Notes: generated by a model not told the origin, from the letters alone. A stretch of DNA of 64,000 nucleotides from Candidatus Altimarinota bacterium (GCA_965250085.1 OZ252287.1:32001-96000); one strand, 5' to 3'; positions 20,579-61,806 are shown, numbered from the stretch's first letter. A program made the numbers and translations.

Positions 20579-23500
20579 ATGGAAAGTACAACATTTTCTT
20601 TTTCGCGTGTATTTCGTGCGATTTTTTATTCACTTTTTGCAATCTTAAGCACTGCATTTCTTTTCCTCTATGGTGGAGCAAAACCATCTACAGACAACGC
20701 TCTTGCTGCAGGCACCTGCAGTTATGATGCAGTACTAGAAGTAGTAGGGGGAGGAGATCCTATGGATATAGAGAAAGGAGAAGCACTAGAATTTGTATCC
20801 TCAATTCAAAATAGAAGTGCAGATTGTAATACGAGTGACGTAGGGAATAACAGTAAGACATATCGGAAGCTAGAAGTAGATGCCGATGGGAACGGAGAAT
20901 ATGAATATACAAGTGACTGGACATCATGCTATTCGACAACGTGTAAAACAGACAGACATCCGCCAAGATTCACCTATAGCAAAGCAGGACAATATACAGC
21001 AAGAACAAGAATTACCTGGAGAGAAAACCCGAATGGGACAGTAATAGAAGAAGACACTGTTACCATAAACGTAAAAGCCCCACCAGTAATCATAGATCCT
21101 GCATGTAACCTGAATGATCCTGATGGAGCAGGAGACAAGTTTATTCTTGTAAACTTCCAGCCATTCTATCAAGGAGGGAAGAAGATATTTGGGAATTATG
21201 GACCTGCAGATGCAGTTATGGGACCTGTGGGAGTGAATGTTCCCTCAGGAGTGTATAAGATAGAAGCGACCTCATTTGATGACCATAGCCAACAGACGAG
21301 TGATAAAGTCACAAGCCAACAGAGAGAACAATGGGTACTGAGATTCCAGAATGGAGGAGGATCAGTGCTGGCCCAGACGAGAGCGACAAATGATGTACCG
21401 AACAACGCAGACCAGATAAGCCATGTACTGGAGACAGGTTTTGTGATACCAGCGAATGTAAGCAAAGTAGATGCGTATCATGCAGCCTATCCGGGAGCAT
21501 CTACACCAGAGAGTGTGACACCGGTATGTGCTCTTCTGGAAAATATTACACCCCCAGAACCAACATGTAGCTTTAATGCTGATCCTTCTCAGATAGTAGT
21601 GGGCGACTCCAGTACTCTTTCATGGAGCACCACCAATGCAGGCAATGTTGTTATTTCCAATATTGGAAGTGTAAGTGCTAATGGAAATCAAAATGTGACC
21701 CCGGCAACAACTACAATTTATGAGCTTACAGCAACGGGTCTTGGAGGAGAGGCGATATGTTATGCAACAGTTACAGTGGAGCCCCTTCCAGACGAACCTA
21801 GTTGTTCTAATTTTACGGCCAATCCAGATTCAATATATGTTGGTGAGTCAACAACGCTCGATTGGACACAAGTCAACGGTGTCTCTGCTTCCATTGATAA
21901 TGGAGTAGGAGCGGTACCATTAAATGGACCAAAATCGGTTTCACCAAATCAAACGACAACATATACCCTTACAATTACTGGTGCGCCTGGAACGACTCCA
22001 GACGAGTGTGAAGCCACGGTTACAGTAAATCCACTGCCACCACTGGATTGCGAACTGAATGTGATTCCCAATCCAGTTTTAGAAGGAAGTGGAGCTCAGG
22101 TATGCTGGACTCTTACGGGATCTCCCCTTGATGGGAATTTGATTTCTAACGATCCTGGTGTTTTCATCCCTGGTCCAAATAATTTTACTCAAGATGGATG
22201 CGCTTCCAATGTGGGACCATTCACGATTGATCCTACCAACTTTACCCTTAGTATTTCTGATGTCTTTGGACAGCAAGCTTCGTGTAATATTGCTGTAGAA
22301 GTCAATCCACCTACTCCAGATAAAGCAGATGTGTATATTGATAAAGTGGTCTTGTCTCCTCAGCCTCCTCAAGGAGAAATAGGAGATATCTTTACCTATC
22401 GACTCAATTTTGGAAACAATGGTCCTGATACAGCCGTCAATGTACGGGTGATAGATGTGTATGACGCGACCAGAGTTTCTATTGTACAGTTTATCGGCAT
22501 GAGTGCAGGAGTCAGCTGTCAGGATATTCCCAATCCGCCAAATGGCAATCCGCGTATTGTATGTACTGCAGGAGATTTATCTGCTGGCGAGAGTAGATTT
22601 GTAGAATACCAAGCTGTCGCCATTGCTCCTGGAGAAGCTGTCAATAGAGCTCGTGTGGCAACAGACACAGAGGATACAAATCCTGATAACAATCATGATG
22701 AAGAGAGGGTCTTTATTGATCTTCCCGAAGCTCCAACTTGTACTCTGAGTGCAGAGCCAAATCCAGTGACCGCTGAACAATCAATAGAGCTTTGCTGGAC
22801 GGTGATCGGAGGATCAGGGAATGGAATTTTAGATTCAGAACCAGATGCTTCTATTCCCGGTCCAAATGATTTTTCTCAGGACGGATGTGTGTCTCCTGTA
22901 GGCCCTATTGTCCAAAATACTGATTTTACACTTACCGTTTTTGATCAATTCCAGCAATCAGGACAATGTGCAGTAGCTGTTGAAGTAGAAGAACCGCAGG
23001 ACATAGATGTTACTGTCACCAAGGAAGCGAACCCTATCAGTTCTTTTTCAGAAGGAACGGTTACCTATACTCTCACCTACCAAAACTTGGGAACTGATCC
23101 TGCAATGAATGTCACCCTTGAAGATAGTATTGATCTTATAAACTCTACCGGATCAGCGAGCGATTTTATGATTACTGAGCAACCAACTACTGGAGGAGTA
23201 TGTGTTCCAAAGGTAACTGATGACGGTATTATTTGTGTTCTTAACGATCTTGCTGCTAATGCATCCGGAACTATTACCTACACAGCAAAAGTCAGTGGGA
23301 ACGCGGGAGATGTGATCCTTAATGACGTTGAAATCTCAGCAACCAATGAGCCACCTGCAAATCAAGGAAATAATACAGATGATGCTATGGTGACTATCAT
23401 AGAAAGCCTTGAGCCAGATGTTTCGATTATGAAAGAAGTAAATCCGGCAGAAGTATTTCCTGGAGACATAGTGACCTATACACTCGACTATGCAAATGTC

Positions 23501-26500
23501 GGTCTGGAGGTAGCATACAATGTTACTGTTATTGATCAGGTACAAAATTCTTCTACTGGTACTATCCACACGCTGGAAGTACAACCCCCTGCAGATGGAT
23601 TTTGTAATGTAGACGAACCAAATCTCAAAATTACGTGTTCTCTGGGAACTTTGAACCCTGGAGATACTGGAACTATTGTCTATACCGCTATCGCTGGTGA
23701 AAACCTTACCAATGGGAACCTTTTGGTTGATAATTTGGTAGTGATCAATACCACCAGCAATGATACCAATCCTGTAAACGACACAGACACAGCTCGACTT
23801 ACCATTAAGCCTCCAGTTCCAGAACTTGAACTTGCGAAATCTGTCCTGAATGAAAACTCACAGGAAACTGGAGATGATGTGAAGGCTGATGCAGATGATG
23901 TCCTCACCTATACACTCAGCGCGTCAAATTCTGGCACGGCAGATGTACAGGATTATGTGTTTATCGATGATGTGAATGATATTCTGGAATATGCAGATAT
24001 CGACAGTATCTCTGATGGAGGAGCAGAAAATGCAGGAGTCATTACCTGGCCTGCTATGACCATTCCTTTCGGTCAGACCGTAAGCGTTACATTTGAAGTT
24101 ACTGTAAAAGCAGAAAACGACTGGCCACAATCAGACTTTACCCTTACCAATATCTTTGGAAACTTTGTCACCGTACGCCTCGAACAACCTGATCTGGCGA
24201 TTACGATCAATGTAGATGACACCTCAGTGCCACCAACTATTGTGGGACCACCACGAGTACCCACCCTGCTCACCTATGATCTGATTTGGGAAAACCTGGG
24301 AAATATCGATATGGAACAAACAATTGTTACCGTTGATTGTGCTGATGATGCGATCAATATCTTGAGTGCCTCTGGAGCGCTGAGTATAGACAATGTAAAC
24401 AATATCATTGTCTGGGACTTAGGAACGGTACTGGCTGGCAGCAGCGGACCACTTACCTTTGAGGCAGAACTGCAAGATGGATATGGAGAACTCACTCCAG
24501 AATCATTTGATTGTACTGCTCATATTGAAAGCGCTGTAATTCCCGTAGCAAGTGAAACCAACCAACTCAACAACGATGATGATGTCACTGTAGTCGTTGA
24601 TGAAAACAATAGAGACTCAATAGCAAAACGTGTTACCAATCTTAGTACAGGGATTACTTCCACAGCCGTTCAAGCGCAACCTGGTGATGAAATTGAATAC
24701 GTGCTTTCATATACTGCTGGAGATGTTGATATGAATGGATATGTCTTTAATGATGATGTAACAGATGTTCTGGAGCTTTCCAACCTGGTATACAATGATC
24801 CACCAGCAAATACTTCACTCTTTGGAGGAGGAGTTCTGAATGGCAATACTATCACTTGGGATAATGGAGGAGCAGGATTTGATGTTCCTGCTTTCCAAAC
24901 ACAGGAAGTCAAGTTTCGTATTGTGATCTTTGACGAGGAGACACTTTCTCAGCATCAAGGAGATTTTGTTCTGACAAATATTTTTGGAAACGTGACAACA
25001 ACAGTTACTCTTCCGAGTTTACAGAAATCAAAAACAGTTGCAATCAATGGAGGGTCAGAAGTTATTGCGAGCAATGCAGAGGCAGGAGATATTCTCACTT
25101 ACAATCTGTATGTAGAGAATATAGGAGCCGCTACGCACAACGCATTTGTTGTAGAAGATGACGTTAGCGATATCCTAGAATATGCCACTGTGATCGATTC
25201 TGGAGGAGGAATAATCGATACCAATGCATTTGGAGAGCAAATTATTTCATGGCCTCCAGCTGATATTGCTGCAGGAGACACTCTTGTGAAAACATTCCAA
25301 GTGCAAATTCTCAATCCACTTCCACAAGGAGGTGACTTCACCCTGAGAAATGCTTATGGAAACAGTGTGACTGTTGTTACTATTCCAGATTTGAATATCT
25401 CAAAATCAGTGCTTAATACTGATACTCAAGAGCAGGGAACGAATGTAAATGCTGATGAAAATCATGTTCTGGTATATACCCTGACAGCAAATAATACTGG
25501 AAGTGCCGATTTTCTCAACTTCGTCTTCTCAGATGATGTGAATGACATTCTGGAATATGCTGTTCTCGGATCTATTTCTGATGGAGGAGCTGAGGCAGGG
25601 GGAGCGATTACCTGGCCGGCAATGGATGTCCCCAATGGACAATCAGTCAGTGTGACTTTTGAAGTAACCGTCAATGCTACAGCAAATTGGCCAGCAAATT
25701 CTGATTTCCGAATGGAAAATATCTTTGGAAATACTGTTGTGGTGGAACTCCCAGGAGTCGTAGAAGTGGATACTCACATTGAAAAAACAGTTGATACCGT
25801 CGTAGCGATCCCTGGACAAGTGCTCACCTATACTCTGACGTACTTTAATGAAGGCAACGATATAGCAACCAATGTGACCATAGAAGATGATATTGATGAA
25901 TCCAAACTTGATATTGATCTCAATTCTCTTCCTGCCAACTGTGCATACGTTGATCTGGGTGATCCACTTAAGATAAATGGTGGACCCATGGGGATCAGAT
26001 GCAGCTCCATCGATCTGGAAAAAACAACTCCTGCACAGGTCATAACCTATATGGCAACCGTCAAAGATGACGCCACAGGAGACATTATCAACACTGCTGA
26101 GATTAATCAGGATGAAGTAGATATTGATCCTTCAGACAATCAATCATCAGCAACAGTTCCAGTAGAAACAGATGTCAATCTTTCTATTGTTAAGATCGCA
26201 AATCCAGTGAGCTTGGTGACCGGACAACAAACTCAATATGCTATTACGGTCACGAATGATTCGTCAATTGCACAAAGCTTTACCGTAACCGATGTTCTGG
26301 GTGCTGGAAACAATGGAGGATCACTCACCTTTCTCCCTTCAACAGTTTCATTTGTATTTAGTGCAGGAGGCAGTGCTTCAGGAAACTCACCCTTTATCAT
26401 TACCGATCTGGAAGGGAGTGGAAACACTGTGACCATTACGTACAACGCTACGGCTAGTAACTCTGGTATTCCTACAAACCAAAGTTCACTCTTTACCAAT

Positions 26501-27562
26501 ATTGCGACAATTGTCGAGACTGGTGATACTGCTACAGAAGACGTCTTTGTTGTCGGGCCACGAAGCGGCGGAAGTGGAGGCGGAGGTGGTGGAGGCGGTT
26601 CTCGAATTATTCGAGGATCACTCAATGTCTTTCTCCAAAAAGAGGTATTTGATACCAATATTGATACTTGGAAAGATGCTGACACTGTAGATCTTGCAGC
26701 TTTTGTTGATCCAGGTTCTCAGCAGGAAATTCGATATCGAATTTTGGTGCGAAACGAAGGAAGTATCAAAGGAGATATCACTGTAGAAGACATCTTTAGT
26801 AGCCAAAGCTTGAATAGAGTTGATGTGCAAAATGTTACAGGAGCTACTTGGGATCCACACACACAAGAATTCTTGGTAGAAGATGTCGGAGCGGGGAGCA
26901 CTAAAACGATTGCTTACACTGCTGTAGTTTCTCGTCTTGCTGGCACGTCAAATCCTGTAGCGGTCAATACTGCCACGGTAACTGAAGCAGAACTTTCTTC
27001 AGACCTTCCGAGCAATCGATACATCTTGCAAAGCGTAGAAGGAATTGGTACGAGTGATGATGCGTATGTCAAAACCTTTGGGGGTGATGTAGAACTCAAA
27101 AAACGAGTTGATAAGATCATAGCCAACAGAGGAGAGGAAATACGATATACCCTCACGGTTCGTAATGTAGGATCTGAAAATTTTACAAATGTTCGACTTG
27201 TGGATGAATTCCCATATGAATTCGTAGATATCATTTCTATGAGTCCTGAAGGAGTTCGTCAAGGAAATGCTCTCGTGTTTACCAAAAGTTCACTTGCGCC
27301 CAGCAAACTCTGGATTGTACGAATAACTGCCCGTATCAAAGATGATGTCAAATCCGGAACAGTGATTCCAAACCTCGTCAACGTAGAAGCTGATGGACAA
27401 GACTTTTCTGACAAATGGGTACGAGTAAAGACTTTGGTAGACTTTCCCAAAGCACCGAGGACGCCTGATGTAGGACCCGCTGGAATCTTCTTTGGACTCT
27501 TCCTCTTCAGCACTTCACTCCTCTATATTAGACTTCGAAAAAGAGGCATTCTGAAAATATAG
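20579..27562 (+). CDS. Giant modular surface protein (PKD-like, Cys-bracketed Ig repeats, many DUF11/isopeptide-type domains, C-terminal sortase-like motif + TM + basic tail)
   Basis: Repeated xxK...PGD.LTYTL...N.G...D...N.A units; GGGGGGGS linker; ends PRTPDVG + hydrophobic helix + RLRKR. Confidence 0.85.
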   Translation: MESTTFSFSRVFRAIFYSLFAILSTAFLFLYGGAKPSTDNALAAGTCSYDAVLEVVGGGDPMDIEKGEALEFVSSIQNRSADCNTSDVGNNSKTYRKLEVDADGNGEYEYTSDWTSCYSTTCKTDRHPPRFTYSKAGQYTARTRITWRENPNGTVIEEDTVTINVKAPPVIIDPACNLNDPDGAGDKFILVNFQPFYQGGKKIFGNYGPADAVMGPVGVNVPSGVYKIEATSFDDHSQQTSDKVTSQQREQWVLRFQNGGGSVLAQTRATNDVPNNADQISHVLETGFVIPANVSKVDAYHAAYPGASTPESVTPVCALLENITPPEPTCSFNADPSQIVVGDSSTLSWSTTNAGNVVISNIGSVSANGNQNVTPATTTIYELTATGLGGEAICYATVTVEPLPDEPSCSNFTANPDSIYVGESTTLDWTQVNGVSASIDNGVGAVPLNGPKSVSPNQTTTYTLTITGAPGTTPDECEATVTVNPLPPLDCELNVIPNPVLEGSGAQVCWTLTGSPLDGNLISNDPGVFIPGPNNFTQDGCASNVGPFTIDPTNFTLSISDVFGQQASCNIAVEVNPPTPDKADVYIDKVVLSPQPPQGEIGDIFTYRLNFGNNGPDTAVNVRVIDVYDATRVSIVQFIGMSAGVSCQDIPNPPNGNPRIVCTAGDLSAGESRFVEYQAVAIAPGEAVNRARVATDTEDTNPDNNHDEERVFIDLPEAPTCTLSAEPNPVTAEQSIELCWTVIGGSGNGILDSEPDASIPGPNDFSQDGCVSPVGPIVQNTDFTLTVFDQFQQSGQCAVAVEVEEPQDIDVTVTKEANPISSFSEGTVTYTLTYQNLGTDPAMNVTLEDSIDLINSTGSASDFMITEQPTTGGVCVPKVTDDGIICVLNDLAANASGTITYTAKVSGNAGDVILNDVEISATNEPPANQGNNTDDAMVTIIESLEPDVSIMKEVNPAEVFPGDIVTYTLDYANVGLEVAYNVTVIDQVQNSSTGTIHTLEVQPPADGFCNVDEPNLKITCSLGTLNPGDTGTIVYTAIAGENLTNGNLLVDNLVVINTTSNDTNPVNDTDTARLTIKPPVPELELAKSVLNENSQETGDDVKADADDVLTYTLSASNSGTADVQDYVFIDDVNDILEYADIDSISDGGAENAGVITWPAMTIPFGQTVSVTFEVTVKAENDWPQSDFTLTNIFGNFVTVRLEQPDLAITINVDDTSVPPTIVGPPRVPTLLTYDLIWENLGNIDMEQTIVTVDCADDAINILSASGALSIDNVNNIIVWDLGTVLAGSSGPLTFEAELQDGYGELTPESFDCTAHIESAVIPVASETNQLNNDDDVTVVVDENNRDSIAKRVTNLSTGITSTAVQAQPGDEIEYVLSYTAGDVDMNGYVFNDDVTDVLELSNLVYNDPPANTSLFGGGVLNGNTITWDNGGAGFDVPAFQTQEVKFRIVIFDEETLSQHQGDFVLTNIFGNVTTTVTLPSLQKSKTVAINGGSEVIASNAEAGDILTYNLYVENIGAATHNAFVVEDDVSDILEYATVIDSGGGIIDTNAFGEQIISWPPADIAAGDTLVKTFQVQILNPLPQGGDFTLRNAYGNSVTVVTIPDLNISKSVLNTDTQEQGTNVNADENHVLVYTLTANNTGSADFLNFVFSDDVNDILEYAVLGSISDGGAEAGGAITWPAMDVPNGQSVSVTFEVTVNATANWPANSDFRMENIFGNTVVVELPGVVEVDTHIEKTVDTVVAIPGQVLTYTLTYFNEGNDIATNVTIEDDIDESKLDIDLNSLPANCAYVDLGDPLKINGGPMGIRCSSIDLEKTTPAQVITYMATVKDDATGDIINTAEINQDEVDIDPSDNQSSATVPVETDVNLSIVKIANPVSLVTGQQTQYAITVTNDSSIAQSFTVTDVLGAGNNGGSLTFLPSTVSFVFSAGGSASGNSPFIITDLEGSGNTVTITYNATASNSGIPTNQSSLFTNIATIVETGDTATEDVFVVGPRSGGSGGGGGGGGSRIIRGSLNVFLQKEVFDTNIDTWKDADTVDLAAFVDPGSQQEIRYRILVRNEGSIKGDITVEDIFSSQSLNRVDVQNVTGATWDPHTQEFLVEDVGAGSTKTIAYTAVVSRLAGTSNPVAVNTATVTEAELSSDLPSNRYILQSVEGIGTSDDAYVKTFGGDVELKKRVDKIIANRGEEIRYTLTVRNVGSENFTNVRLVDEFPYEFVDIISMSPEGVRQGNALVFTKSSLAPSKLWIVRITARIKDDVKSGTVIPNLVNVEADGQDFSDKWVRVKTLVDFPKAPRTPDVGPAGIFFGLFLFSTSLLYIRLRKRGILKI
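20711..21544 (+). repeat. ~830-bp module shared with 47714-48544 (500-bp identical core 21017-21516)
   Basis: Line-by-line comparison of the two regions. Confidence 0.95.
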
Positions 27563-40383: not shown

Positions 40384-40390
40384 TTTTATT

Positions 40391-40456
40391 CCTCCCTTAG
40401 TAAGGGAGGCTAGGTGGGTTTTAACCCCTTTAATCCCCCTTTTCAAAAGGGGGAAG
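40391..40456. repeat. Composite palindromic element (two hairpin units)
   Basis: cctcccttagtaagggaggctaggtggg + cccctttaatcccccttttcaaaagggggaag. Confidence 0.85.
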
Positions 40457-41273: not shown

Positions 41274-41298
41274 TGCTGGGATAAAAAGAATTGAAATT

Positions 41299-41362
41299 CC
41301 TCCCTTAACAAGGGAGGCTAGGTGGGATTAAACCCCCTCAATCCCCCTTTTCAAGGGGGAAG
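41299..41362. repeat. Composite palindromic element, direct copy of 40391-40456
   Basis: cctcccttaacaagggaggctaggtggg + ccccctcaatcccccttttcaagggggaag. Confidence 0.85.
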
Positions 41363-41364
41363 TT

Positions 41365-44683: not shown

Positions 44684-46033
44684 ATGAAAGTTTCAGAGCT
44701 TACTGGCAAAAACATACTTATTCTGGGCTTTGGTCAGGAGGGGAGAGCTACGTATGAGTTCCTTCACAAGTGTCTTCCGGGCGAGCTCTTCTCAGTTGCA
44801 GATAAAAACAAACACATAGAGGTTTCCGCGGAGGTTCAAAATTCACACCTTGGGGATACATATCTCGATCATCTGGAAGAGTACGATGTCATTATCAAAA
44901 CACCTGGAATTTCTCCTTTTGTTTCGCAGATTCAGACAGCGCTTCAGAAAGGAATACGATTCACAAGTGCAACAGAGATTTTTTTCTCTGAAGTAAAAGG
45001 GAGAGTCATCGGTATTACTGGCACGAAAGGAAAAAGCACCACGTCCGCACTCCTCTACGATATTCTCAGAACTGCTCAAAAAGATGCTCATCTTATCGGA
45101 AATATTGGATCTCCTGCATTGAGTTTTTTGAAAAATGACACTTCAGAAACAATTTATATTTTTGAGCTTTCGAGTTATCAACTCCAGAATTTGAGGGTTT
45201 CACCTCAGATTGGTATTTTCACCAGTTTTTTCCCGGCACATCTCACGTATCACAAAGATCTCAAGGAATATTTTGATTCCAAGATGAACCTTTTCGTCCA
45301 TATGAAAAAGACTGGTAAAGCCTTCTGGAACTCAAACTTTTCAGAAATAACAGATGCTTTTATCTCTCTCTCATGTCAAAAGTATCCATATAATGATGGG
45401 AAACAAACGACAGTTGTGCATGGAGATTTGGTCTATAAAGGACGAACAATTGTTCTCGAAAAAGAATTTCCACTTATCGGAAAGCATAATGCCGAGAATG
45501 CTCTTGGAGCCATTGCGGTTGCAAAAGAATTTGATATTTCTGATGAAGTTATTTCAGAGGCTGTTTCTGAATTCACACCTCTTGAACATCGGCTAGAGCC
45601 AGTGGGGGAGTATAAAGGTATTCGGTTTTACAATGATAGTCAGTCCTCTACACCGAGTTCTACTATTGCCGCTATTCAGGCATTTGGAAATAAAATTGAG
45701 ACTATTATTTTGGGTGGTCTCGACAATAAAGTGGGTTTTGAAAAACTTGGAGAAGTCATTGCAGACTCATCTCTTCAAAATCTTGTACTCTTTCCAGATA
45801 CAGGTAAAAAGATCTGGCAAGAAGTGAAAAAATCATGTGAAGCAAAAGGAAAAAATATTCCACAGCATATCTTTGTTCACAATATGAAAGAAGCGGTGTG
45901 GAAATGCTATGAAATAACGTCTGCAGGAAAAATATGCATCCTCTCTCCGGCGTGCCAGAGCTTTAATATGTTCTCAAGACTCGAAGAGAGAGGGAAACAA
46001 TTCAAAGAATTCGTAAAAGAACTGGGCAAATGA
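44684..46033 (+). CDS. murD: UDP-N-acetylmuramoyl-L-alanine--D-glutamate ligase
   Basis: KTPGI, GITGTKGKSTT, GNIG, ELSSYQL, HRLE, NDS, LSPACQSF. Confidence 0.93.
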   Translation: MKVSELTGKNILILGFGQEGRATYEFLHKCLPGELFSVADKNKHIEVSAEVQNSHLGDTYLDHLEEYDVIIKTPGISPFVSQIQTALQKGIRFTSATEIFFSEVKGRVIGITGTKGKSTTSALLYDILRTAQKDAHLIGNIGSPALSFLKNDTSETIYIFELSSYQLQNLRVSPQIGIFTSFFPAHLTYHKDLKEYFDSKMNLFVHMKKTGKAFWNSNFSEITDAFISLSCQKYPYNDGKQTTVVHGDLVYKGRTIVLEKEFPLIGKHNAENALGAIAVAKEFDISDEVISEAVSEFTPLEHRLEPVGEYKGIRFYNDSQSSTPSSTIAAIQAFGNKIETIILGGLDNKVGFEKLGEVIADSSLQNLVLFPDTGKKIWQEVKKSCEAKGKNIPQHIFVHNMKEAVWKCYEITSAGKICILSPACQSFNMFSRLEERGKQFKEFVKELGK

Positions 46034-46743
46034 TCCCGAAAAATTTTCTTGATTCGGCTTATAGAGAACTCACAAATAATGAGTTAGAAAGCTTTCAAAA
46101 TTTGTATACAAATTTTGTTCAAAAAAATAAGATAATAAATCTTTCTGCTATTCGGGACGAACAGGGGATTTGGGAAAAACATTTTTATGATTCGCTCCTT
46201 GGAGCGGAATTTTTAGAAGATGCTGACGAAAAAATACTCGATCTTGGATCAGGTGGAGGATTTCCTGCATTGCCACTGGCTCTTATGTTCCCAGGCAAAC
46301 AATTTTTTCCATTCGATTCTGTTGAGAAAAAGATGAAAGCAGTGCAAGAAATAGTAAATACATCAAAGATAGACAATGTCACGCCTCTTATCGGTCGTGC
46401 AGAAGAGCTCGGTCAAGATGCTCTTCATCGGGAGCAGTATGATGTCGTGACAGTACGCGCCTTTGCTCCTTTTTCTGTATGCTTAGAGCTGGCTCTTCCA
46501 TTCGTCACTGTAGGAGGAAAAGTAATTCTCTATCGTGGTCCTGAAAATGAGCGAGATGCAAATTTGCTCGCAGGCGCTTTTGGAGCCATTATTAAAACTC
46601 AAAAAAAAGATCAATTACCGAGTAAGGATAAGCGAGAGATCTGGGAAATTATCAAAATAGCACCTACAGAAGATATGTTTCCTCGAGCAAATGGCATTCC
46701 TAAAAAAGAACCAATGACATTGAAGAGCATGAATTACGAATGA
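46030..46743 (+). CDS. rsmG: 16S rRNA (guanine527-N7)-methyltransferase
   Basis: NLSAIR, KHFYDSL, DLGSGGGFP, GRAEE, VRA, FPR..G.PKK. Confidence 0.93.
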   Translation: MIPKNFLDSAYRELTNNELESFQNLYTNFVQKNKIINLSAIRDEQGIWEKHFYDSLLGAEFLEDADEKILDLGSGGGFPALPLALMFPGKQFFPFDSVEKKMKAVQEIVNTSKIDNVTPLIGRAEELGQDALHREQYDVVTVRAFAPFSVCLELALPFVTVGGKVILYRGPENERDANLLAGAFGAIIKTQKKDQLPSKDKREIWEIIKIAPTEDMFPRANGIPKKEPMTLKSMNYE

Positions 46744-46808
46744 TCGATTACCAATTATGAATAAAAAATTCTTTATAAACTTTATAACTTTTTACTTTTA
46801 ACTCGTCT

Positions 46809-47426: not shown

Positions 47427-47560
47427 TCAACAGTCAGTGGTCAGCTATCAGCACTTGGTGTCTTATTTTCATGGTCTATGTTCCATGGCTGTTCCTGCTT
47501 GAAAAAAACTACAAAAAATGATACAATACTTAGATTTTTAAAAATTTAAATACATACAAA

Positions 47561-49408
47561 ATGTCATTTGTTCACAAGAAAACTGCATCGGCAGTTGCCA
47601 AGACAAATCCTCTTATAGGGCTTCTTGTATTGAGCACGCTCCTTCTCATGGGAGGTTTGTACCTTTTCCTTGCTGGAAATGATAGCACTTTTTCACCAGT
47701 TCAAGCACAGAGTGGCACCTGCAGTTATGATGCAGTACTAGAAGTAGTAGGGGGAGGAGATCCTATGGATATAGAGAAAGGAGAGATGCTAGAATTTGTG
47801 TCCTCAATACAGAACGAGAGTTCTGATTGTAATGAGAGTGATCAAGGCAATAGCGAGACATATCGGAAGCTAGAAGTAGATGCCGATGGGAATGGAGAAT
47901 ATGAATACACAAGTGACTGGACATCATGTTCGAGTACCACCTGTAAGACAGACAGACATCCGCCAAGATTCACCTATAGCAAAGCAGGACAATATATAGC
48001 GAGAACAAGAATTACTTGGAGAGAAAACCCGAATGGGACAGTAATAGAAGAAGACACTGTTACCATAAACGTAAAAGCCCCACCAGTAATCATAGATCCT
48101 GCATGTAACCTGAATGATCCTGATGGAGCAGGAGACAAGTTTATTCTTGTAAACTTCCAGCCATTCTATCAAGGAGGGAAGAAGATATTTGGGAATTATG
48201 GACCTGCAGATGCAGTTATGGGACCTGTGGGAGTGAATGTTCCCTCAGGAGTGTATAAGATAGAAGCGACCTCATTTGATGACCATAGCCAACAGACGAG
48301 TGATAAAGTCACAAGCCAACAGAGAGAACAATGGGTACTGAGATTCCAGAATGGAGGAGGATCAGTGCTGGCCCAGACGAGAGCGACAAATGATGTACCG
48401 AACAACGCAGACCAGATAAGCCATGTACTGGAGACAGGTTTTGTGATACCAGCGAATGTAAGCAAAGTAGATGCGTATCATGCAGCCTATCCGGGAGCAT
48501 CTACACCAGAGAGTGTTGCACCGGTATGTGCTCTCCTGGAAAATGTGACACCACTGCCAACCTGTAATTTAACATCAACACCAAGTGTTATTAACGCTGG
48601 AGATTCAGCAACCCTCACTTGGACAACAACAAATGCAACTTCTGCTTCAATTGACCCAGGAGTTGGAGTTGTTACCCCCGTAGAAAGCGGTTCGGTCGTT
48701 GTTTCTCCTGTATCTACTATCACATACACTATGACAGTAGACGGGAGCGGAGGACAGAGTATGTGTACAACTACAGTAACAGTAGAAGATACACCACCAC
48801 CAACCTGTAATTTAACATCAACACCAAGTGTTATTAACGCTGGAGATTCAGCAACCCTCACTTGGACAACAACAAATGCAACTTCTGTTTCAATCGATCC
48901 AGGAGTTGGAGCTGTTACTCCTGTAGCTGGTGGCTCAGTCATTGTTTCTCCTTCATCTACTACCACCTATACTATGACAGTAGACGGGAGTGGAGGGCAG
49001 AAGAGTATGTGTACGACTACAGTAACAGTAGAAACTATTGTTCCAGCCAATTTTACCCTCGACAAATCAGCAGACAAGACAGTACTCATTCCTGGTGATA
49101 CCGTTGTTTACACCGTAATAGTAAAAAACACAGGAGGGACAGCTCAAACAGTTCGCCTGACAGATACCATGGCATCTGGCACTGCTGGAGGCAGTATGGG
49201 ACCTATATTTGATGAAAATATTAGTTTTGCTGGTGGGACTTGTACTCCTAGTGGAAGCCTTGCAGTTGATGGAATTGTTTTTCCTGACTTTCCCCCTGGA
49301 GGAGTGGCAACTGTAACGTACAAGCGAACGGTAGACGCCACTGGAGTTGTTTTTGATGCTCCATCTTCGTTTACAAACACTGCAAAACTCTATACATGTA
49401 CTGAATAA
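47561..49408 (+). CDS. Secreted Ig/PKD-like + DUF11 protein whose last DUF11 domain appears C-terminally incomplete
   Basis: N-terminal TM/signal; shared module with 20579 gene; two ~81-aa repeats PTCNLTSTPSVINAG; ends FTNTAKLYTCTE. Confidence 0.82.
   Translation: MSFVHKKTASAVAKTNPLIGLLVLSTLLLMGGLYLFLAGNDSTFSPVQAQSGTCSYDAVLEVVGGGDPMDIEKGEMLEFVSSIQNESSDCNESDQGNSETYRKLEVDADGNGEYEYTSDWTSCSSTTCKTDRHPPRFTYSKAGQYIARTRITWRENPNGTVIEEDTVTINVKAPPVIIDPACNLNDPDGAGDKFILVNFQPFYQGGKKIFGNYGPADAVMGPVGVNVPSGVYKIEATSFDDHSQQTSDKVTSQQREQWVLRFQNGGGSVLAQTRATNDVPNNADQISHVLETGFVIPANVSKVDAYHAAYPGASTPESVAPVCALLENVTPLPTCNLTSTPSVINAGDSATLTWTTTNATSASIDPGVGVVTPVESGSVVVSPVSTITYTMTVDGSGGQSMCTTTVTVEDTPPPTCNLTSTPSVINAGDSATLTWTTTNATSVSIDPGVGAVTPVAGGSVIVSPSSTTTYTMTVDGSGGQKSMCTTTVTVETIVPANFTLDKSADKTVLIPGDTVVYTVIVKNTGGTAQTVRLTDTMASGTAGGSMGPIFDENISFAGGTCTPSGSLAVDGIVFPDFPPGGVATVTYKRTVDATGVVFDAPSSFTNTAKLYTCTE
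47714..48544 (+). repeat. Second copy of the ~830-bp shared module
   Basis: Identical to 21017-21516 over 48017-48516; patchy differences upstream. Confidence 0.95.
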
Positions 49409-49453
49409 TTTTTTGAATGTCTTTCTTCTTGAAACCTTTCATATATAAATACA

Positions 49454-52084
49454 ATGAAAAAAATAGCTTCTCCTAAGGGATTTTCCACTGTTTCACTCCT
49501 CATCATAGGATTGGTGATCCTTGGAATTATAGTCCTCCTTTTTGCAGGACTGGATAACATTCTGTTTCGAGGTGATATTACAGCACCGGACCCAGAGCCC
49601 ATAGGCCCCCCTCCTTCTGCTACGGTTCAATGTAGCACCTCATGTCAAAATCAACAGCTCGTTGCACAAGACACAGAGGTAGTAACTGTAAATGTCCCTC
49701 AGGGACCAGTATGTACTGGTGCGCGACCAGAAAGCCTCACGACTACCAACATGTCTGGAGAATTTATGGTGTTTGCCGATGGAGTACAGAATACGGACAG
49801 AGTATATTTTGCGGTCTTTTCTCTGGCAGATGAACAGGGAAGTGGCAGTAATACAGATGACAGACTTGTATACGAAGGAGAAGATCAGGGAAATGGAACA
49901 TGGAAAGCTACTATTTTGTTAGAAAACCATCCAACAACACCTGACAATCGTATCATTTTTGTACGAGCCTGGATGGACTATCCAGGAAATCAAAATGTAG
50001 AGTGTGGACGAGCAGATTTTGGAATAATCATTCTAGGAACGGGACCAACTTGTGTGCTCACCGCAAATCCGGCAACTATTAATGCTGGTGAAATAAGCAC
50101 ACTGAGCTGGGAAGTCTTCGGAAATGCAACTTCTGCAGTCATGAACCCAGATATTGGAACAATCGCTCTGCCAACCGGTTCTGCAGATGTATCTCCTACT
50201 GATACAACCAATTACACACTTACAGTCAGCAACGTCGACGGAAGTGGTTCTTGTTCAGTGCCAGTAACAGTTGGATCTCCACCAGGAGTTACTCTCTCTC
50301 TCACCAAAACGGTAGATCCTACATCTGCAAATCCTGGAGAAACACTGACCTATACCCTTGAATATAGTAATCAGGGTCCTGGAGACGCGACTGGTGTAAT
50401 CTTAGAAGATGATTTTGATGAGACAAAAATAACGAATATTGATGCTCCAGCAGAATGTTTGGAAGCTGGAGGAATCCTCACCTGTACTATTGGAGATCTT
50501 GCCAATGGAGAAACTGGTCAAATTGTCTATACAGCTGAAATTAAGTCAGATAATGCAATTTTCTTTGAAGGACCACCTGGTGGTGAATTTATTGACAATA
50601 CGGCAACACTTGATTCAGATCAGACAGATCCTATCTCTGACACGGCAAGGGTCACAGTACAGCCTGGCGGTTTGACTCTCGATAAGAGTGCTAACCCCGT
50701 GCGACTGGTGACCGGACAGCAGACAACCTATACCGTGGAAGTAATGAATCACTTTAATTCTTCACAGACCTTTACACTCCAAGATGTCCTTTCTAGTGGA
50801 AATAATGGTGGAACAATTACCATTAACGCCTCTAGCTATCAAGCAGTGTTTGATCCAATAAGTTCAGGAATATTTTCGGGAAATAATCCATTTACTATTA
50901 CGGATTTACAGCCTGGAGCAAAAGTAACGATCACATACACGGGAACTGCCAGTAACGCGGGAATTCCCGTTAATCAAGAATCGCTCTTTCCCAACACGGT
51001 TACCCTGGTAGAAACTGGTGAACAGGATAGTGCTGAAGTTGTAGTCATTGGACCCACACAAGGGACTCCACCAAGCACAGGTGGAGGCGGAGGCGGAGGC
51101 AGTAGAATCATTACAGCTGGTGTGGAATTGGACGTTATAAAAGAGGTACAAGACCGAGATGGACAATGGAAGGATGCAAATGAGATTGATTTCGCCGCAC
51201 TTGTTGCCAACACTCCTGAACAAGCAGTTCATTACCGAGTAAAGGTTACTAATTCTGGAAACATCAGCGGAGAAAATGTAGTGATCGAAGACGTATTTGA
51301 AAGTAGCACCTTAGAAAGACTTGAAATCGAAAATGTCAAAGGAGCTGAATATGATGATGAAGATGATACGTTCATGATTGATGAAATCAGATCGAATGAG
51401 ACCAAGACCATCACCTATGATATGAAACTTGAAAAAACTGGCTCATCTCAGCTTTCTGCCAGCGCGGTTAATACTGCAACCGTTACTGAAGCAGAAAACA
51501 GAAAAGGTCTACCTTTCCGTTATCGCCTCAAACCAGTAGAAGGAATAGGCGAAGATGATCCAGCGTATATTAAAACTGATGACAAAGCTCCTCCTCTAGA
51601 AAGGATTGATGTCAATCTCGACAAAAGTGTGAACAAAGCAGTCGTAAAACCAACCGAAGAAGTAGAATACACTATTCGCGTGAAAAATGTTTCTACCACT
51701 GATTTGCTGGATGTTGTGGTGACAGACCTTTTTCCCTTCAATTCTCTCGAATTTATATCCGCTAGTTCACGAGGAATTCAAAAGGATAATAAAATTGAAT
51801 ATAACAAGAGAATCCTGAGAATTGGAGAAGAATGGATCATTAAGGTCAAAGCAAAGGTTAAAGCAGGAGTACCAGCAGGAACTCATATTAGAAATATTGT
51901 GGCCATCAAAGCAAGTAATGCTGATCTCTCTGACAAACGAGATGAAACAGAAATTGAAACTATTGGTGGAACGACTCCAAAAAGGCTCCAAAGCACAGGA
52001 CCAGAAGAAATGGTAGCACTTATGCTCCTTGTTCTGGGATCACTGCTCTTTGTAACCGGAATACGCAAACGATACTGGTCATAA
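49454..52084 (+). CDS. DUF11 surface protein with pilin-like N-terminal leader and C-terminal sortase-like motif + TM + basic tail
   Basis: KG|FSTVSLLII leader; DUF11 units; GGGGGGSRII; ends RLQSTG + hydrophobic helix + RKR; C-terminal half homologous to 20579 gene. Confidence 0.82.
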   Translation: MKKIASPKGFSTVSLLIIGLVILGIIVLLFAGLDNILFRGDITAPDPEPIGPPPSATVQCSTSCQNQQLVAQDTEVVTVNVPQGPVCTGARPESLTTTNMSGEFMVFADGVQNTDRVYFAVFSLADEQGSGSNTDDRLVYEGEDQGNGTWKATILLENHPTTPDNRIIFVRAWMDYPGNQNVECGRADFGIIILGTGPTCVLTANPATINAGEISTLSWEVFGNATSAVMNPDIGTIALPTGSADVSPTDTTNYTLTVSNVDGSGSCSVPVTVGSPPGVTLSLTKTVDPTSANPGETLTYTLEYSNQGPGDATGVILEDDFDETKITNIDAPAECLEAGGILTCTIGDLANGETGQIVYTAEIKSDNAIFFEGPPGGEFIDNTATLDSDQTDPISDTARVTVQPGGLTLDKSANPVRLVTGQQTTYTVEVMNHFNSSQTFTLQDVLSSGNNGGTITINASSYQAVFDPISSGIFSGNNPFTITDLQPGAKVTITYTGTASNAGIPVNQESLFPNTVTLVETGEQDSAEVVVIGPTQGTPPSTGGGGGGGSRIITAGVELDVIKEVQDRDGQWKDANEIDFAALVANTPEQAVHYRVKVTNSGNISGENVVIEDVFESSTLERLEIENVKGAEYDDEDDTFMIDEIRSNETKTITYDMKLEKTGSSQLSASAVNTATVTEAENRKGLPFRYRLKPVEGIGEDDPAYIKTDDKAPPLERIDVNLDKSVNKAVVKPTEEVEYTIRVKNVSTTDLLDVVVTDLFPFNSLEFISASSRGIQKDNKIEYNKRILRIGEEWIIKVKAKVKAGVPAGTHIRNIVAIKASNADLSDKRDETEIETIGGTTPKRLQSTGPEEMVALMLLVLGSLLFVTGIRKRYWS

Positions 52085-52178: not shown

Positions 52179-53903
52179 TTATGCGGCTATTTTGTCGAGA
52201 GTATTCAACGCTTGAGTACGACCCGTGTATTTTTTTCTTTGGTAGAATTGTCGTATTCCCTTTTGAATCTCGCTTTCTTCTCCATTTTTTGCAGAAGTAG
52301 AATTCTCAAGAGCTGCGCGTGTTTTCAAAATAGTACGCTCTAACGCTCTGGGAAATGAAAGTACTCTTCCAGATTCTTCAATTTTGGTTACCTTTTGATC
52401 AGCCACGTTTTTCTTGGCATCCCTTGCTTCTCTTTTGATCTCTTGGGACCTGATATAACTAGCTCTGTTATCCAGAGAAATTACTTCAGCTGATTCGGGG
52501 TCTCCCTTTGAAGAAGAGAGGGGAGTTTCAATTGCTTCCGGTTCGGATATATGGAGCTGTATTTCTTGTTTTCCTGTTTTTGTTTCTGTAATGGCTTCTT
52601 GCTCACTTTTTTCAATTTCTTCATATCCCAAGGGACCGATTTGTTCAGGAGTGTCGTCATAATGTCTTTTGATTTCCTGTACCGTCATATCTCTTCTGGT
52701 TTCTTTTCCTGCATCAAACTCATTTTGCCACGTCAAACTTGCCAGAAGAAAAGGGACCACGTACTCTCCTGCTTCTTGTAAAATCAAATCTTCTATCATT
52801 TCTTGTTTGTTTTTTTGCTCTGATCCGCCTCCAGAGTCAGAATTAATATTTTTTTGGCACTTTGTAATGTTTGCTTCTATCAATTCTTGTTCCTTCGTGA
52901 TTCCTTTTGTTGGTGAAGGATATTGTTTTGCCATGCTCAAAAGTCCCTGATGGGTGACCAAAGATTCTTGCCACTTCAGATTTTTCTCTGCAAATTCTCT
53001 GCTTTTTAGGAGATGCACTTCAAATGGTTCTGCTTTGAGTTCCAAGGTGCATTTTTTTATGTTTTCTCCTGCTCTGCGCTGTACTTGCTGCAAATCAGGT
53101 GTCAGAAGTCCTCCTTTTTGGATTTGAGAGAGTTCAGAAAGAAGTTGTGTATGTTTCCTGACAGATTCATCCCATGCAAATCCATTTTTTGGATGAGACC
53201 ATGCGTCCATATCTTTCATATACTCTTTTGCTCCTTCTTGTTGTGCAATCTTGAGATCTTTCTCAGTGACCTGAGCACACAATTCCGCATACTCGGCAGA
53301 CGCACCCTTCCCGTGTCGTAAACTTTGTAATCCTTTGAGGGTTTTTCCAAATACGGTAATAGAAGCCCTATAACCAAGGTTTTTATATGCCCTTTGTGCT
53401 GGTCGAAACAGAGTCCGAGCTTGAGCATGCCTTTTGAGCTCCAATTTTTCTTCTTGGTGTATTTCTGCTTCTATTTGATCTAATTCTGCAAGAATGCGCT
53501 TCGATATATTTTTTTCAACAAGCTTATCGCTGAGATATAAGTCACTTTTTTCAAGAGCTTCCAAGGCCTTTCTTCTCTTGATGCTTTCCTCAGAAATAAG
53601 GGATATTTCAGCACTGCTAATGGTCTTTTCTAAAAGACCTTTCACAATTTCTCTTTTTTGAGAAACTTTTTCTTTTATTTTATGCTGCCTTTCGAGGTCT
53701 TCTGTGCTTTTTTTTATATCCTTTATGGAAACCGAGCTTGCACCCTCTCTCAAGATATTTGCTACTTTCCGAGTCATTGTTCCCGACTGCACCATATGAT
53801 CGAGGAGGCGCACTTGATCTTGAATGGCTTGCTTTTTATCAGCATCGGACACATCTTTTGGTTCCTTAGTTTTCGATAATGGAGCTACTCCAATGGATGC
53901 CAT
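52179..53903 (-). CDS. Hypothetical charged coiled-coil protein
   Basis: 574-aa K/E-rich ORF with no recognisable motif. Confidence 0.7.
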   Translation of the reverse strand: MASIGVAPLSKTKEPKDVSDADKKQAIQDQVRLLDHMVQSGTMTRKVANILREGASSVSIKDIKKSTEDLERQHKIKEKVSQKREIVKGLLEKTISSAEISLISEESIKRRKALEALEKSDLYLSDKLVEKNISKRILAELDQIEAEIHQEEKLELKRHAQARTLFRPAQRAYKNLGYRASITVFGKTLKGLQSLRHGKGASAEYAELCAQVTEKDLKIAQQEGAKEYMKDMDAWSHPKNGFAWDESVRKHTQLLSELSQIQKGGLLTPDLQQVQRRAGENIKKCTLELKAEPFEVHLLKSREFAEKNLKWQESLVTHQGLLSMAKQYPSPTKGITKEQELIEANITKCQKNINSDSGGGSEQKNKQEMIEDLILQEAGEYVVPFLLASLTWQNEFDAGKETRRDMTVQEIKRHYDDTPEQIGPLGYEEIEKSEQEAITETKTGKQEIQLHISEPEAIETPLSSSKGDPESAEVISLDNRASYIRSQEIKREARDAKKNVADQKVTKIEESGRVLSFPRALERTILKTRAALENSTSAKNGEESEIQKGIRQFYQRKKYTGRTQALNTLDKIAA

Positions 53904-54101
53904 GTGCAGAATATCTTTTTACAGGAGCTCAAGCATGCGTTTTTTTCACTCAAAAAACAAGGGAGGAAAATCAATTACGAATGACAAATTACGAATGCTC
54001 AATGCTAAAAAGCCAATACTCACAATTGACATCTCCTCTCGACAGAGGGAAATATTCCAGTATACTTCAAGGCACGAATATTCGTAATTTTTTGATTTTT
54101 T

Positions 54102-59383: not shown

Positions 59384-59434
59384 AAGAAAAGAGATAAAAG
59401 AGAAAAATATTTTTTTGTATAATTTTCGAAAAAC

Positions 59435-59468
59435 AAATCCCCCTAACCCCCTTTTTCAAAGGGGGAAG
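59435..59468. repeat. CCCCTT..AAGGGG palindromic element
   Basis: aaatccccctaaccccctttttcaaagggggaag. Confidence 0.8.
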
Positions 59469-59474
59469 ATATTT

Positions 59475-61800: not shown

Positions 61801-61806
61801 TTATAA

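What the first reader, a model, noticed from the sequence alone, without database searches (positions are those of the whole stretch)
47561..52084. Split adhesin: a DUF11 domain apparently completed in trans by the next gene's N-terminal strand
Seen: the 615-aa protein ends ...SSFTNTAKLYTCTE*. Intact DUF11 units in this window continue past the N-x-A/V strand into a final strand (FTNIATIVETG-DTATEDVFVV; FPNTVTLVETG-EQDSAEVVVI). The next gene is in the same frame, 45 nt downstream. After its leader and a Pro-rich linker it carries ATVQCSTSCQNQQLVAQDTEVVTV, an orphan match to that missing strand. Joining at the Cys codons (atgta at 49396-49400 and 49630-49634, 234 bp apart, in frame) gives a continuous TAKLYTCSTSCQNQQLVAQDTEVVTV. 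Together the two genes reproduce the N-terminal module and the C-terminal modules of the 2327-aa protein at 20579. Known: chaperone-usher and type V pili polymerise by donor-strand complementation, and DUF11-like domains carry Lys/Asn isopeptide positions. Inference: the anchorless 615-aa tip protein docks on the membrane-anchored 876-aa stalk by strand complementation, possibly disulfide-locked, which would be a two-component swappable adhesin. The alternative is an ancestral fused gene split by a 234-bp insert carrying a stop and a new leader.
Basis: partly seen in the sequence, partly recalled or inferred. Interest (0 to 1): 0.8.

Follow-up and report, generated by a model that had tools for sequence, protein, structure and literature searches.

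The report
Adhesin domain split across two genes
Two neighbouring surface-protein genes of a very small bacterial genome divide one stalk domain between them: the first protein lacks the domain's last strand and the second begins with it, so the two probably snap together outside the cell, though this is not proven.

Summary
The 615-aa protein (47561-49408) ends inside a DUF11/CLIPPER domain (aa 495-615). It keeps the Lys-Asp-Asn isopeptide positions but stops exactly before the final strand, beta9. The next gene (49454-52084) lies 45 nt downstream in the same frame, with two in-frame stops between. After a hydrophobic leader and a Pro-rich linker it carries QLVAQDTEVVTV (aa 68-79). This is a true beta9 homologue. 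It ranks at p = 5e-5 per position against a profile of eight beta9 strands. Its only close match (10 of 12 identical) in about 497,000 residues of fetched proteins is the beta9 of a complete CLIPPER domain. A complex prediction pairs it antiparallel with the 615-aa protein's last strand: ipSAE 0.66, best control 0.02. Independent contigs from four runs of one sample cross the junction unchanged. I found no relative, split or fused, so conservation cannot be tested. The 'atgta' repeat is at chance level. Verdict: a real gene fission inside a stalk domain. Reassembly by strand complementation is plausible (about 0.5) but rests on one genome and one model. It would be a new variant of donor-strand complementation.

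The parts
47499..47527 (+). Promoter-like site (TTGAAA, 17 nt, TACAAT, with TG) upstream of the 615-aa gene. No such site and no terminator-like site lies in the 45-nt gap between the two genes, so they are probably co-transcribed (inference).
   Evidence: This is a consensus match only.
47561..49408 (+). Gene for the 615-aa protein (P0001). It has a hydrophobic leader, an N-module of unknown fold, two Ig-like 'PTC' repeats and a truncated CLIPPER domain. It has no anchor.
47705..48565 (+). N-module (aa 49-335). It is shared with the 2327-aa paralogue, has no Pfam family and is almost unique to this genome.
48017..48516 (+). 500-nt tract identical to 21017-21516 in the 2327-aa gene, a gene-conversion tract. 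The flanking codons 46-140 have dS 0.54 and dN/dS 0.25.
48557..49042 (+). Two tandem Ig-like repeats (aa 333-494). Each is closed by a Cys pair, and their DNA is 90% identical.
   Evidence: (family D7)
49043..49405 (+). Truncated CLIPPER/DUF11 domain (aa 495-615). K502, D535 and N606 occupy the isopeptide triad columns. The domain ends in the turn after beta8, and beta9 is missing.
49409..49453 (+). 45-nt AT-rich gap. It follows the TAA stop (49406-49408) and holds a second in-frame stop, TGA, at 49430-49432. It has no Shine-Dalgarno motif, as with most genes of this genome (48 of 630 long ORFs have one).
49454..52084 (+). Gene for the 876-aa protein (P0002). In order it has a leader, a linker, the orphan beta9, a Bsp-like domain, an Ig-like repeat, CLIPPER domains, a Gly linker, an RrgB-like domain and a further DUF11-type domain, and a C-terminal sorting-like signal.
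49454..49573 (+). Leader (aa 1-40). A short basic N-region ending in KGF(S/T) is followed by about 21 hydrophobic residues. It looks like a prepilin signal but lacks Glu at +5.
   Evidence: The prepilin motif is recalled from memory.
49574..49654 (+). Pro-rich linker and a C-S-T-S-C motif (aa 41-67).
49655..49693 (+). Orphan beta9 strand (aa 68-80, QLVAQDTEVVTVN). The model pairs it antiparallel with aa 602-611 of the 615-aa protein.
49706..50023 (+). GBS Bsp-like domain (about aa 85-190). It is bounded by Cys87 and Cys184 and does not include the orphan strand.
50666..51055 (+). Complete CLIPPER domain of the same subtype (aa 405-534), used as the structural reference.
51980..52081 (+). C-terminal sorting-like signal: LQSTG, a hydrophobic stretch and an RKRYWS tail.
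   Evidence: Two sortase genes are in the genome.
20579..27562 (+). 2327-aa paralogue (P0003). It is an unsplit fibrillar adhesin with the same N-module and the same C-terminal modules.

Best explanation
One large fibrillar adhesin gene, of the kind still intact at 20579-27562, has been divided in the beta8-beta9 turn of a CLIPPER (DUF11) stalk domain.

The upstream product (615 aa) is exported with a CLIPPER domain that keeps its internal Lys-Asp-Asn isopeptide triad but has an open edge where beta9 should lie. The downstream product (876 aa) is exported separately and held at the cell surface by its C-terminal sorting-like signal. It presents beta9 on a flexible Pro-rich N-terminal extension.

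Outside the membrane the strand inserts antiparallel to beta8 and next to strand A. This completes the sandwich and tethers the anchorless protein with the N-module to the anchored stalk. In effect it is a one-step donor-strand complementation without polymerisation.

Shown: the split, the homology of both halves and their predicted fit. Inferred: co-transcription, export, leader cleavage and reassembly in the cell.
For: - The domain is truncated exactly before beta9.
- The orphan strand is a beta9 homologue.
- It lies outside the next domain by homology boundaries.
- Complex prediction: ipSAE 0.66 as the median of runs 0.77, 0.65 and 0.66, against a best control of 0.02. This mark was reached by 58 of 80 solved complexes and by 2 of 110 mismatched pairs. 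The runs agree in at least 93% of contacts, and the partner's pLDDT is at least 65.
- The contacts in that model run from aa 602-611 of P0001 to aa 79-68 of P0002, antiparallel, plus a contact to strand A. The acceptor's pLDDT is 84-89 with the true partner and 62 and 75 with unrelated partners.
- The gap has no terminator-like or promoter-like site, and a promoter-like site lies upstream of the first gene.
- The start context of the second gene is typical for this genome.
- The N-module of the 615-aa protein shows purifying selection: dN/dS 0.25 over 95 codons at dS 0.54.
- Both ORFs are intact. Contigs from four runs of one sample cross the junction with 0 differences.
- There is a precedent in the same bacterial radiation. 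Pam pili use C-terminal truncated Ig-like domains filled by a strand of the next subunit. A membrane-tethered terminator is predicted to insert its N-terminus (PMC13278184; abstract, section 6 and passages read).
Against: - A complex prediction for the two halves of one split domain is expected to pass by likeness to intact domains. It shows that they fit, not that they bind in a cell.
- This is one genome only. No relative, split or fused, was found, so nothing shows that selection keeps the arrangement.
- With only the three closest paralogous strands, the motif test is weak: 0.12 expected.
- Cleavage of the 876-aa protein's leader is unverified. If it stays in the membrane, the donor strand sits about 35 residues from the membrane and the 'tip on stalk' picture fails.
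- No PapD-like chaperone was found by Pfam PF00345.
Confidence: 0.5

Rival explanations
1. Fission relic without reassembly. The split is a recent accident in a fast-changing adhesin locus. The orphan strand is left-over sequence. The 615-aa protein is released, or degraded, with a frayed last domain, and the 876-aa protein works alone as a shorter adhesin.
For: No conservation can be shown, because no relatives were found. The locus is recombinationally active: it has a 500-nt identical conversion tract and a 90% identical tandem repeat. An unsplit paralogue could cover the function. The complex pass is expected for any two halves of one domain (the tool's own caution).
Against: The strand is still a very good beta9: 10 of 12 identical to a bona fide beta9, and p = 5e-5 per position. 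It sits on a Pro-rich linker directly behind a complete leader, which is what a donor strand needs. The N-module of the 615-aa protein has been under purifying selection. Both ORFs are intact in a 1.37-Mb genome.
Confidence: 0.33
2. The N-terminal strand belongs to the 876-aa protein's own fold, packing on the Bsp-like domain, or serves another purpose. The 615-aa protein's domain is simply short.
For: The AlphaFold2 single-sequence model of aa 36-200 was too poor (pLDDT 38) to exclude this. The stretch ATVQCST also weakly resembles the start of the last strand of the Ig-like 'PTC' repeats (gapped hits, E 0.14-5).
Against: The Pfam Bsp-like hit starts at aa 99, which is profile position 7 of 92. 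The only distant homologue of that domain aligns from aa 82, at a Cys-bounded start. The contiguous match to a CLIPPER beta9 is much stronger, E = 0.002. The truncation and the orphan are exactly complementary.
Confidence: 0.07
3. Chance resemblance, or an assembly or sequencing artefact.
For: The motif is short. The 'atgta' repeat is at chance level. The four runs come from one sample, probably the sample the genome was assembled from.
Against: A 10,600-nt Logan contig covers 48858-52200 with 0 differences in each of 4 runs, and no joint appears at the gap. Two in-frame stops and a full leader lie between the genes. The statistics and the complex controls argue against chance.
Confidence: 0.04

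Closest known systems
CLIPPER domain (Pfam DUF11, PF01345; crystal structure 9IFR)
   Same: The Pfam hit is above the cut-off. The model of the complete paralogous domain has 9IFR as its best Foldseek hit (E = 2e-6), followed by the isopeptide pilins EbpB, BcpA and RrgB. Lys, Asp and Asn occupy the columns of K715, D748 and N806. The domain forms the stalk of a fibrillar adhesin, as described in PMC12617251 (passages read).
   Different: The copy at the end of the 615-aa protein lacks beta9, and that strand is encoded at the start of the next gene. The passages I read describe only single-chain domains. I did not see the supplementary tables of that paper.
Donor-strand complementation in chaperone-usher pili (Pap/Fim)
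   Same: An Ig-like domain lacking its last strand is completed by an N-terminal extension of another subunit.
   Different: Here there is one acceptor and one donor, so a heterodimer and not a polymer. The fold is CnaA-like with an isopeptide. No PapD-like chaperone was found. The modelled strand runs antiparallel to beta8, as in the native hairpin. There is no outer membrane or usher. How Pap/Fim works is recalled and also taken from PMC13278184.
Pam pili of Candidate Phyla Radiation bacteria (PMC13278184, preprint)
   Same: They occur in the same broad radiation (inferred for this genome). [quoted passage not shown] A tip subunit has an acceptor only. A membrane-tethered terminator is predicted to insert its N-terminus.
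   Different: Pam pilins are small two-domain subunits that polymerise and have dedicated membrane-anchored chaperones. Here two large multi-domain adhesin halves are involved, and the acceptor is a CLIPPER domain. Homology to Pam proteins was not tested, because no Pam sequences were at hand.
Archaeal thread filaments (PMC9715654)
   Same: They combine donor-strand complementation and isopeptide bonds in one surface fibre, according to the title and the start of the abstract in the search listing only.
   Different: Threads are homopolymers. I did not read the paper.
SpyTag/SpyCatcher-type engineered split isopeptide domains (recalled, no call)
   Same: An isopeptide-type adhesin domain is split before its last strand, and the two parts reassemble.
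   Different: In the engineered pairs the reactive residue lies on the donated strand, so the partners become covalently joined. Here all three triad residues stay in the 615-aa protein, so no intermolecular isopeptide is expected.

Membership tests
CLIPPER / DUF11 (PF01345) | Profile match above Pfam's gathering score | tested here: met
   P0001 scores 28.6 bits against a cut-off of 24.6. P0002 scores 146 bits and P0003 279 bits. TIGR01451 also matches.
CLIPPER / DUF11 (PF01345) | Lys (first strand), Asp and Asn (beta8) isopeptide triad | tested here: met
   D41 and N112 are invariant in alignment A2, and K8 is present wherever the first strand is aligned. In P0001 these are K502, D535 and N606. 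The triad is defined in PMC12617251. Bond formation itself cannot be tested here.
CLIPPER / DUF11 (PF01345) | Complete beta-sandwich with the final strand beta9 in the same chain | tested here: not met
   P0001's copy covers profile positions 4-96 of 114 and local HMM positions 2-116 of 131. The chain ends in the beta8-beta9 turn. The other copies in P0002 and P0003 are complete.
Donor-strand complementation systems (chaperone-usher type) | Acceptor Ig-like domain lacking its last strand, plus a donor strand on an N-terminal extension of the partner | tested here: met
   The fit is predicted and binding is not shown.
Donor-strand complementation systems (chaperone-usher type) | Dedicated PapD-like chaperone and usher | tested here: not met
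   PF00345 has no hit in the genome at E <= 0.01. The usher was not searched for. Structure-only homologues such as PamC/D cannot be excluded.
Pam pili of CPR bacteria | Homology to PamA/B/T/R and a pam operon with membrane-anchored chaperones | not testable with these tools
The neighbours of the locus are two methyltransferase-like genes and a convergent 574-aa gene, but none of these three was searched against a family library.
Sortase-anchored surface protein | C-terminal LPXTG-type motif, hydrophobic stretch and basic tail, with a sortase in the genome | tested here: inconclusive
   P0002 ends with LQSTG, a hydrophobic stretch and RKRYWS. P0003 has PDVGP, a hydrophobic stretch and RKR. Two sortase genes score above the cut-off. 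The motif departs from LPXTG, and cleavage was not tested.
Type IV pilin-like (class III signal peptide) | G|F(T/S)xxE cleavage motif with Glu at +5 (recalled) | tested here: not met
   The P0002 leader has KG|FSTVS with Ser at +5. Two canonical KGFTLIELL pilins and one prepilin peptidase are present in the genome.
Split isopeptide 'tag/catcher' pair | Reactive residue on the donated strand, giving an intermolecular isopeptide | tested here: not met
   All triad residues lie in P0001. The donated strand aligns with beta9, which carries no triad residue.

The most novel reading that the evidence does not exclude
This is a natural two-piece fibrillar adhesin. An isopeptide-locked CLIPPER domain without beta9 acts as a chaperone-free 'catcher' at the C-terminus of a secreted binding module. 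The N-terminal donor strand of a wall- or membrane-anchored stalk captures it at the cell surface, possibly with a disulfide between Cys613 and the CSTSC motif. The binding module exchanges sequence with a paralogue by gene conversion, so the cell could re-equip one stalk with changing heads. That would be donor-strand complementation used for modular assembly of a giant adhesin and not for pilus polymerisation.
Probability: 0.35. Interest if true: 0.75.

Novelty: new variant of a known kind. Interest (0 to 1): 0.55.

Why it matters
CLIPPER/DUF11 is described as the most widely distributed isopeptide stalk domain of fibrillar adhesins, and only as a single-chain unit (PMC12617251, passages read). 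A natural copy that is completed in trans would matter in three ways:
- It would show that giant adhesins can be built from separately exported parts.
- It would extend donor-strand complementation to a CnaA-like isopeptide fold. It would also extend it to the poorly understood surfaces of ultra-small bacteria, where a strand-exchange pilus was reported only in 2026 (PMC13278184).
- It would offer a natural non-covalent 'tag and catcher' pair.

If the split is only a recent accident, it is an ordinary gene fission in a recombining surface-protein locus.

Tried and rejected
**Searches for relatives**
- P0002 aa 1-200 found only itself in the 5.8-billion-protein index. It gave 1 weak partial hit in 60 related genomes. 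It gave nothing in metagenome contigs or genome contigs.
- P0001 against proteins of similar length matched only the Ig-like repeats, covering 18-47% of the query.
- The N-module against longer proteins found only the paralogue P0003.
- The N-module in 400 genomes of the class gave 3 weak partial hits at 28-33% identity.
- The exhaustive HMMER search with the truncated domain gave 1085 hits, all generic DUF11 repeats at 32-47% identity. There was no orthologue.

**Origin of the stretch between the two halves**
- It has no second copy in the genome by blastn or tblastn, so it is not a repeat element.
- The 'atgta' repeat is at chance level.

**Structure and family searches that did not help**
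- The AlphaFold2 single-sequence fold of P0002 aa 36-200 had pLDDT 38 and is uninformative.
- The ESM Atlas search on the N-module scored at most 0.78, which is no lead.
- The PDB sequence search with the complete domain gave only chance-level antibody hits.

**Reads**
- The four runs come from one sample and are held as contigs only. No joint skips the gap.
- Contigs cannot show rare variants, starts or expression, and no RNA holder is listed.

**Survey of fetched proteins**
- Of 153 fetched proteins with CLIPPER hits, 12 including P0001 end within 8 residues of a CLIPPER hit.
- They end at varied profile positions. Seven end near position 94-99.
- They may be contig-end fragments or a shorter variant. 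I did not follow this up, and it is not evidence for further splits.

**Readings considered and rejected**
- Read-through or ribosomal bypass of the gap: rejected because two in-frame stops and a complete leader with its own ATG lie in it.
- An intermolecular isopeptide of the SpyTag kind: rejected because the triad is all in one chain.

**Tool availability**
- Supplementary files of both papers were not seen. They may hold lists of DUF11 proteins or Pam homologues that bear on novelty.

Full report
**Setting.** The window is part of a single 1.37-Mb contig with 40% G+C. The genome has canonical type IV pilins, one prepilin peptidase and two sortases. Few of its genes have a Shine-Dalgarno motif: 48 of 630 long ORFs. 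Named database proteins that share the Ig-like repeats come largely from Patescibacteria/Paceibacteria-type metagenome bins. I therefore take the organism to be a member of that radiation. This is an inference and was not tested.

**The observation.**
- Between the genes, in frame, lie the TAA stop and a further TGA at 49430-49432. This is not a single nonsense mutation.
- The last domain of the 615-aa protein P0001 (aa 495-615) is a DUF11 domain. Pfam scores it 28.6 bits against a cut-off of 24.6, but the match covers only profile positions 4-96 of 114.
- The domain belongs to a subtype with three complete copies in this genome: aa 405-534 of the 876-aa protein P0002, aa 1866-1994 of the 2327-aa protein P0003, and a copy in a 1653-aa ORF elsewhere.
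- Aligned with these copies, P0001 stops 11 residues before their end, in the turn after the N-x-A/V strand.

**What the missing piece is.** An AlphaFold2 model of the complete copy in P0002 (11-row alignment, pLDDT 94.4) has nine main strands. The last is a 10-residue strand that forms a hairpin with the N-x-V strand.
- The best Foldseek hit in the PDB is 9IFR, the CLIPPER domain, followed by the isopeptide pilins EbpB, BcpA and RrgB.
- The paper that solved 9IFR renamed DUF11 to CLIPPER. It describes a CnaA-like sandwich with a Lys715-Asn806 isopeptide catalysed by Asp748, and a final strand beta9 (PMC12617251; abstract and passages read).
- In my alignment the Asp and Asn columns are invariant, and the Lys is present wherever the first strand aligns. 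P0001 has K502, D535 and N606.
- The truncated domain therefore keeps everything needed for its internal cross-link and lacks only beta9.

**The orphan strand.** After a leader (aa 1-40) and a Pro-rich linker, P0002 carries QLVAQDTEVVTVN (aa 68-80). Three independent lines identify it as a CLIPPER beta9.
1. A profile of eight beta9 strands from this genome finds its best hit within aa 36-100 exactly there. Only 5e-5 of 435,653 background positions score as high, so 0.003 hits are expected in the 56 positions examined. With only the three subtype strands, ungapped, the test is weak at 0.12 expected.
2. blastp-short of aa 55-84 against 270 fetched proteins (497,164 residues) gives one significant hit, E = 0.002, with 10 of 12 residues identical. 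That segment directly follows an N-F-A-G-L strand. It lies at the beta9 positions of a complete CLIPPER domain in an unrelated 1700-aa adhesin. No other 12-mer in those proteins or in the genome's ORFs reaches 8 of 12.
3. The strand lies outside the next domain. The Pfam Bsp-like hit begins at aa 99, which is profile position 7. The only distant homologue of that domain aligns from aa 82 and starts at a Cys-bounded boundary equivalent to aa 85.

The single-sequence fold of aa 36-200 was too poor to add anything (pLDDT 38).

**Do the halves fit?** I sent the truncated domain (with its 11-row alignment) and aa 45-95 of P0002 to the controlled complex prediction.
- The score was ipSAE 0.66, the median of runs 0.77, 0.65 and 0.66. 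The best of three controls scored 0.02.
- In the tool's calibration this mark was reached by 58 of 80 solved complexes and by 2 of 110 mismatched pairs. Those counts hold only roughly, because my own alignment was used.
- The runs agree in at least 93% of contacts, and the partner's pLDDT is at least 65.
- The lowest-error contacts pair aa 602-611 of P0001 (SSFTNTAKLY) antiparallel with aa 79-68 of P0002. There is an added contact to the first sheet strand. This is the native beta8-beta9 hairpin geometry.
- The acceptor's own pLDDT was 84-89 with the true partner and 62 and 75 with unrelated partners.
- As the tool warns, halves of one split domain tend to pass by likeness to intact domains. 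The result shows compatibility and says nothing about binding in a cell.

**Is the sequence right?** Four public runs, all from one sample, hold the stretch. In each run a 10,600-nt Logan contig covers 48858-52200 with no difference, and no joint skips the gap. The only variants and loose ends lie in the N-module and match the paralogue at 20579. Contigs cannot exclude rare variants. The sample is probably the source of the assembly, so this supports the assembly without being independent of it.

**Is the first gene alive?** The N-module (aa 49-335) is shared with P0003.
- A 500-nt tract (48017-48516) is identical to 21017-21516.
- The flanking codons 46-140 have dS 0.54 with dN/dS 0.25.
- This pattern indicates old paralogues under purifying selection, with a recent gene conversion.
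- A promoter-like site precedes the first gene, and the gap holds neither a promoter-like nor a terminator-like site.
- The AT-rich start context of the second gene, without a Shine-Dalgarno motif, is the norm in this genome.

**History.** The stretch between the two halves has no second copy in the genome. The 'atgta' repeat is at chance level, since 36% of shuffles give an in-frame shared 5-mer. How a leader came to lie inside a domain remains unknown. No relative was found, fused or split, in any collection searched. The only 'fused' comparator is the paralogue P0003, which lacks this particular domain junction.

**Mechanism and its weak points.**
- The most economical reading is a gene fission whose products reassemble. 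P0001 has a leader with a V-Q-A|Q site, which looks cleavable by my reading (no tool was used). It has no anchor.
- P0002 has a C-terminal LQSTG, hydrophobic stretch and basic tail, and the genome has two sortases.
- A donor strand on a flexible N-terminal extension is what chaperone-usher subunits use.
- According to a 2026 preprint, it is also what the Pam pili of Candidate Phyla Radiation bacteria use. That system includes a tip subunit with an acceptor only and a membrane-tethered terminator predicted to insert its N-terminus (PMC13278184; abstract, section 6 and passages read).
- Against this reading: n = 1, there is no conservation, and no PapD-like chaperone was found by Pfam.
- The fate of P0002's leader is also uncertain. 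It looks like a prepilin signal (KG|FST...) but lacks Glu at +5. If it stays in the membrane, the docking site sits close to the membrane and not at the far end of a stalk.
- An intermolecular isopeptide is not expected, because the triad lies in one chain. The proposed disulfide between Cys613 and Cys60 or Cys64 was not tested.

**Verdict.**
- The split of a CLIPPER domain across two genes is real. I put this at about 0.9.
- That the two proteins reassemble by strand complementation is plausible, at about 0.5.
- The main rival is a recent fission relic without reassembly, at about 0.33.
- The finding is a new variant of a known kind (donor-strand complementation) in a fold and a protein class where, in the two full-text searches I ran and the passages I read, I saw no such case described.

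Noticed in passing
window 48017-48516 and 21017-21516: A 500-nt perfectly identical tract is shared by the 615-aa and 2327-aa genes. It sits inside paralogous N-modules whose flanks have dS 0.54, which indicates a recent gene conversion between two adhesin loci 27 kb apart.
   Followed up: yes
window 49454-49573: The leader of the 876-aa protein (basic N-region, KG|FST, about 21 hydrophobic residues) resembles the class III signal of the genome's two canonical pilins (KGFTLIELL, at G000:C1:291806-292324 and 671673-672266). It has Ser instead of Glu at +5. It might be a substrate of the prepilin peptidase.
   Followed up: partly
window 51980-52081 and 27460-27559: By my pattern, only the 876-aa and 2327-aa proteins in the genome carry a C-terminal motif (LQSTG or PDVGP) followed by a hydrophobic stretch and an RKR tail. 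Two sortase genes lie at G000:C1:690716-691150 and 378313-378738. This may be a non-LPXTG sorting signal.
   Followed up: partly
G000:C1:766431-771389 (L003 covers 770088-770555): A third large ORF (1653 aa) has the same CLIPPER subtype. Its beta8-beta9 loop is 27 residues long and rich in Gly and Asp, and a poly-Gly linker follows. Loop length at the split site is therefore naturally variable.
   Followed up: partly
window 48548-48758 and 48791-49001: Two tandem Ig-like repeats in the 615-aa gene are 90% identical in DNA, which indicates a recent internal duplication.
   Followed up: no
window 10492-10547, 40388-40451, 41296-41378, 59429-59484: A palindromic intergenic element (CCCCCT..CCCCCTTTTCAAGGGGG) recurs at least five times in the window. 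It looks like a terminator or a REP-type element.
   Followed up: no
window 34025-34968 and 6554-7396: Long in-frame tandem repeat arrays, with periods of about 69-72 nt and about 144 nt, lie inside two other ORFs (33609-35045 and 6425-9013).
   Followed up: no
window 46722-46762, 53963-54003, 61789-61829: An AATTACGAATGA-like motif is repeated in three places at or just past the 3' ends of ORFs (46030-46743, 52179-53903, 60394-61800). Its purpose is unknown.
   Followed up: no
fetched proteins P0046, P0078, P0081, P0091, P0104, P0117, P0123: Seven database proteins with many DUF11 repeats end within 2-8 residues of profile position 94-99, after the ...F.V.V strand and without beta8 and beta9. 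They may be contig-end fragments, a shorter domain variant, or further incomplete terminal domains.
   Followed up: partly
locus L008/L012 (G290:C5:30205-32163): Weak homologues of the C-terminal third of the N-module in another genome of the class carry 1-2 in-frame TGA codons. This may mean broken genes or a different reading of TGA there.
   Followed up: no
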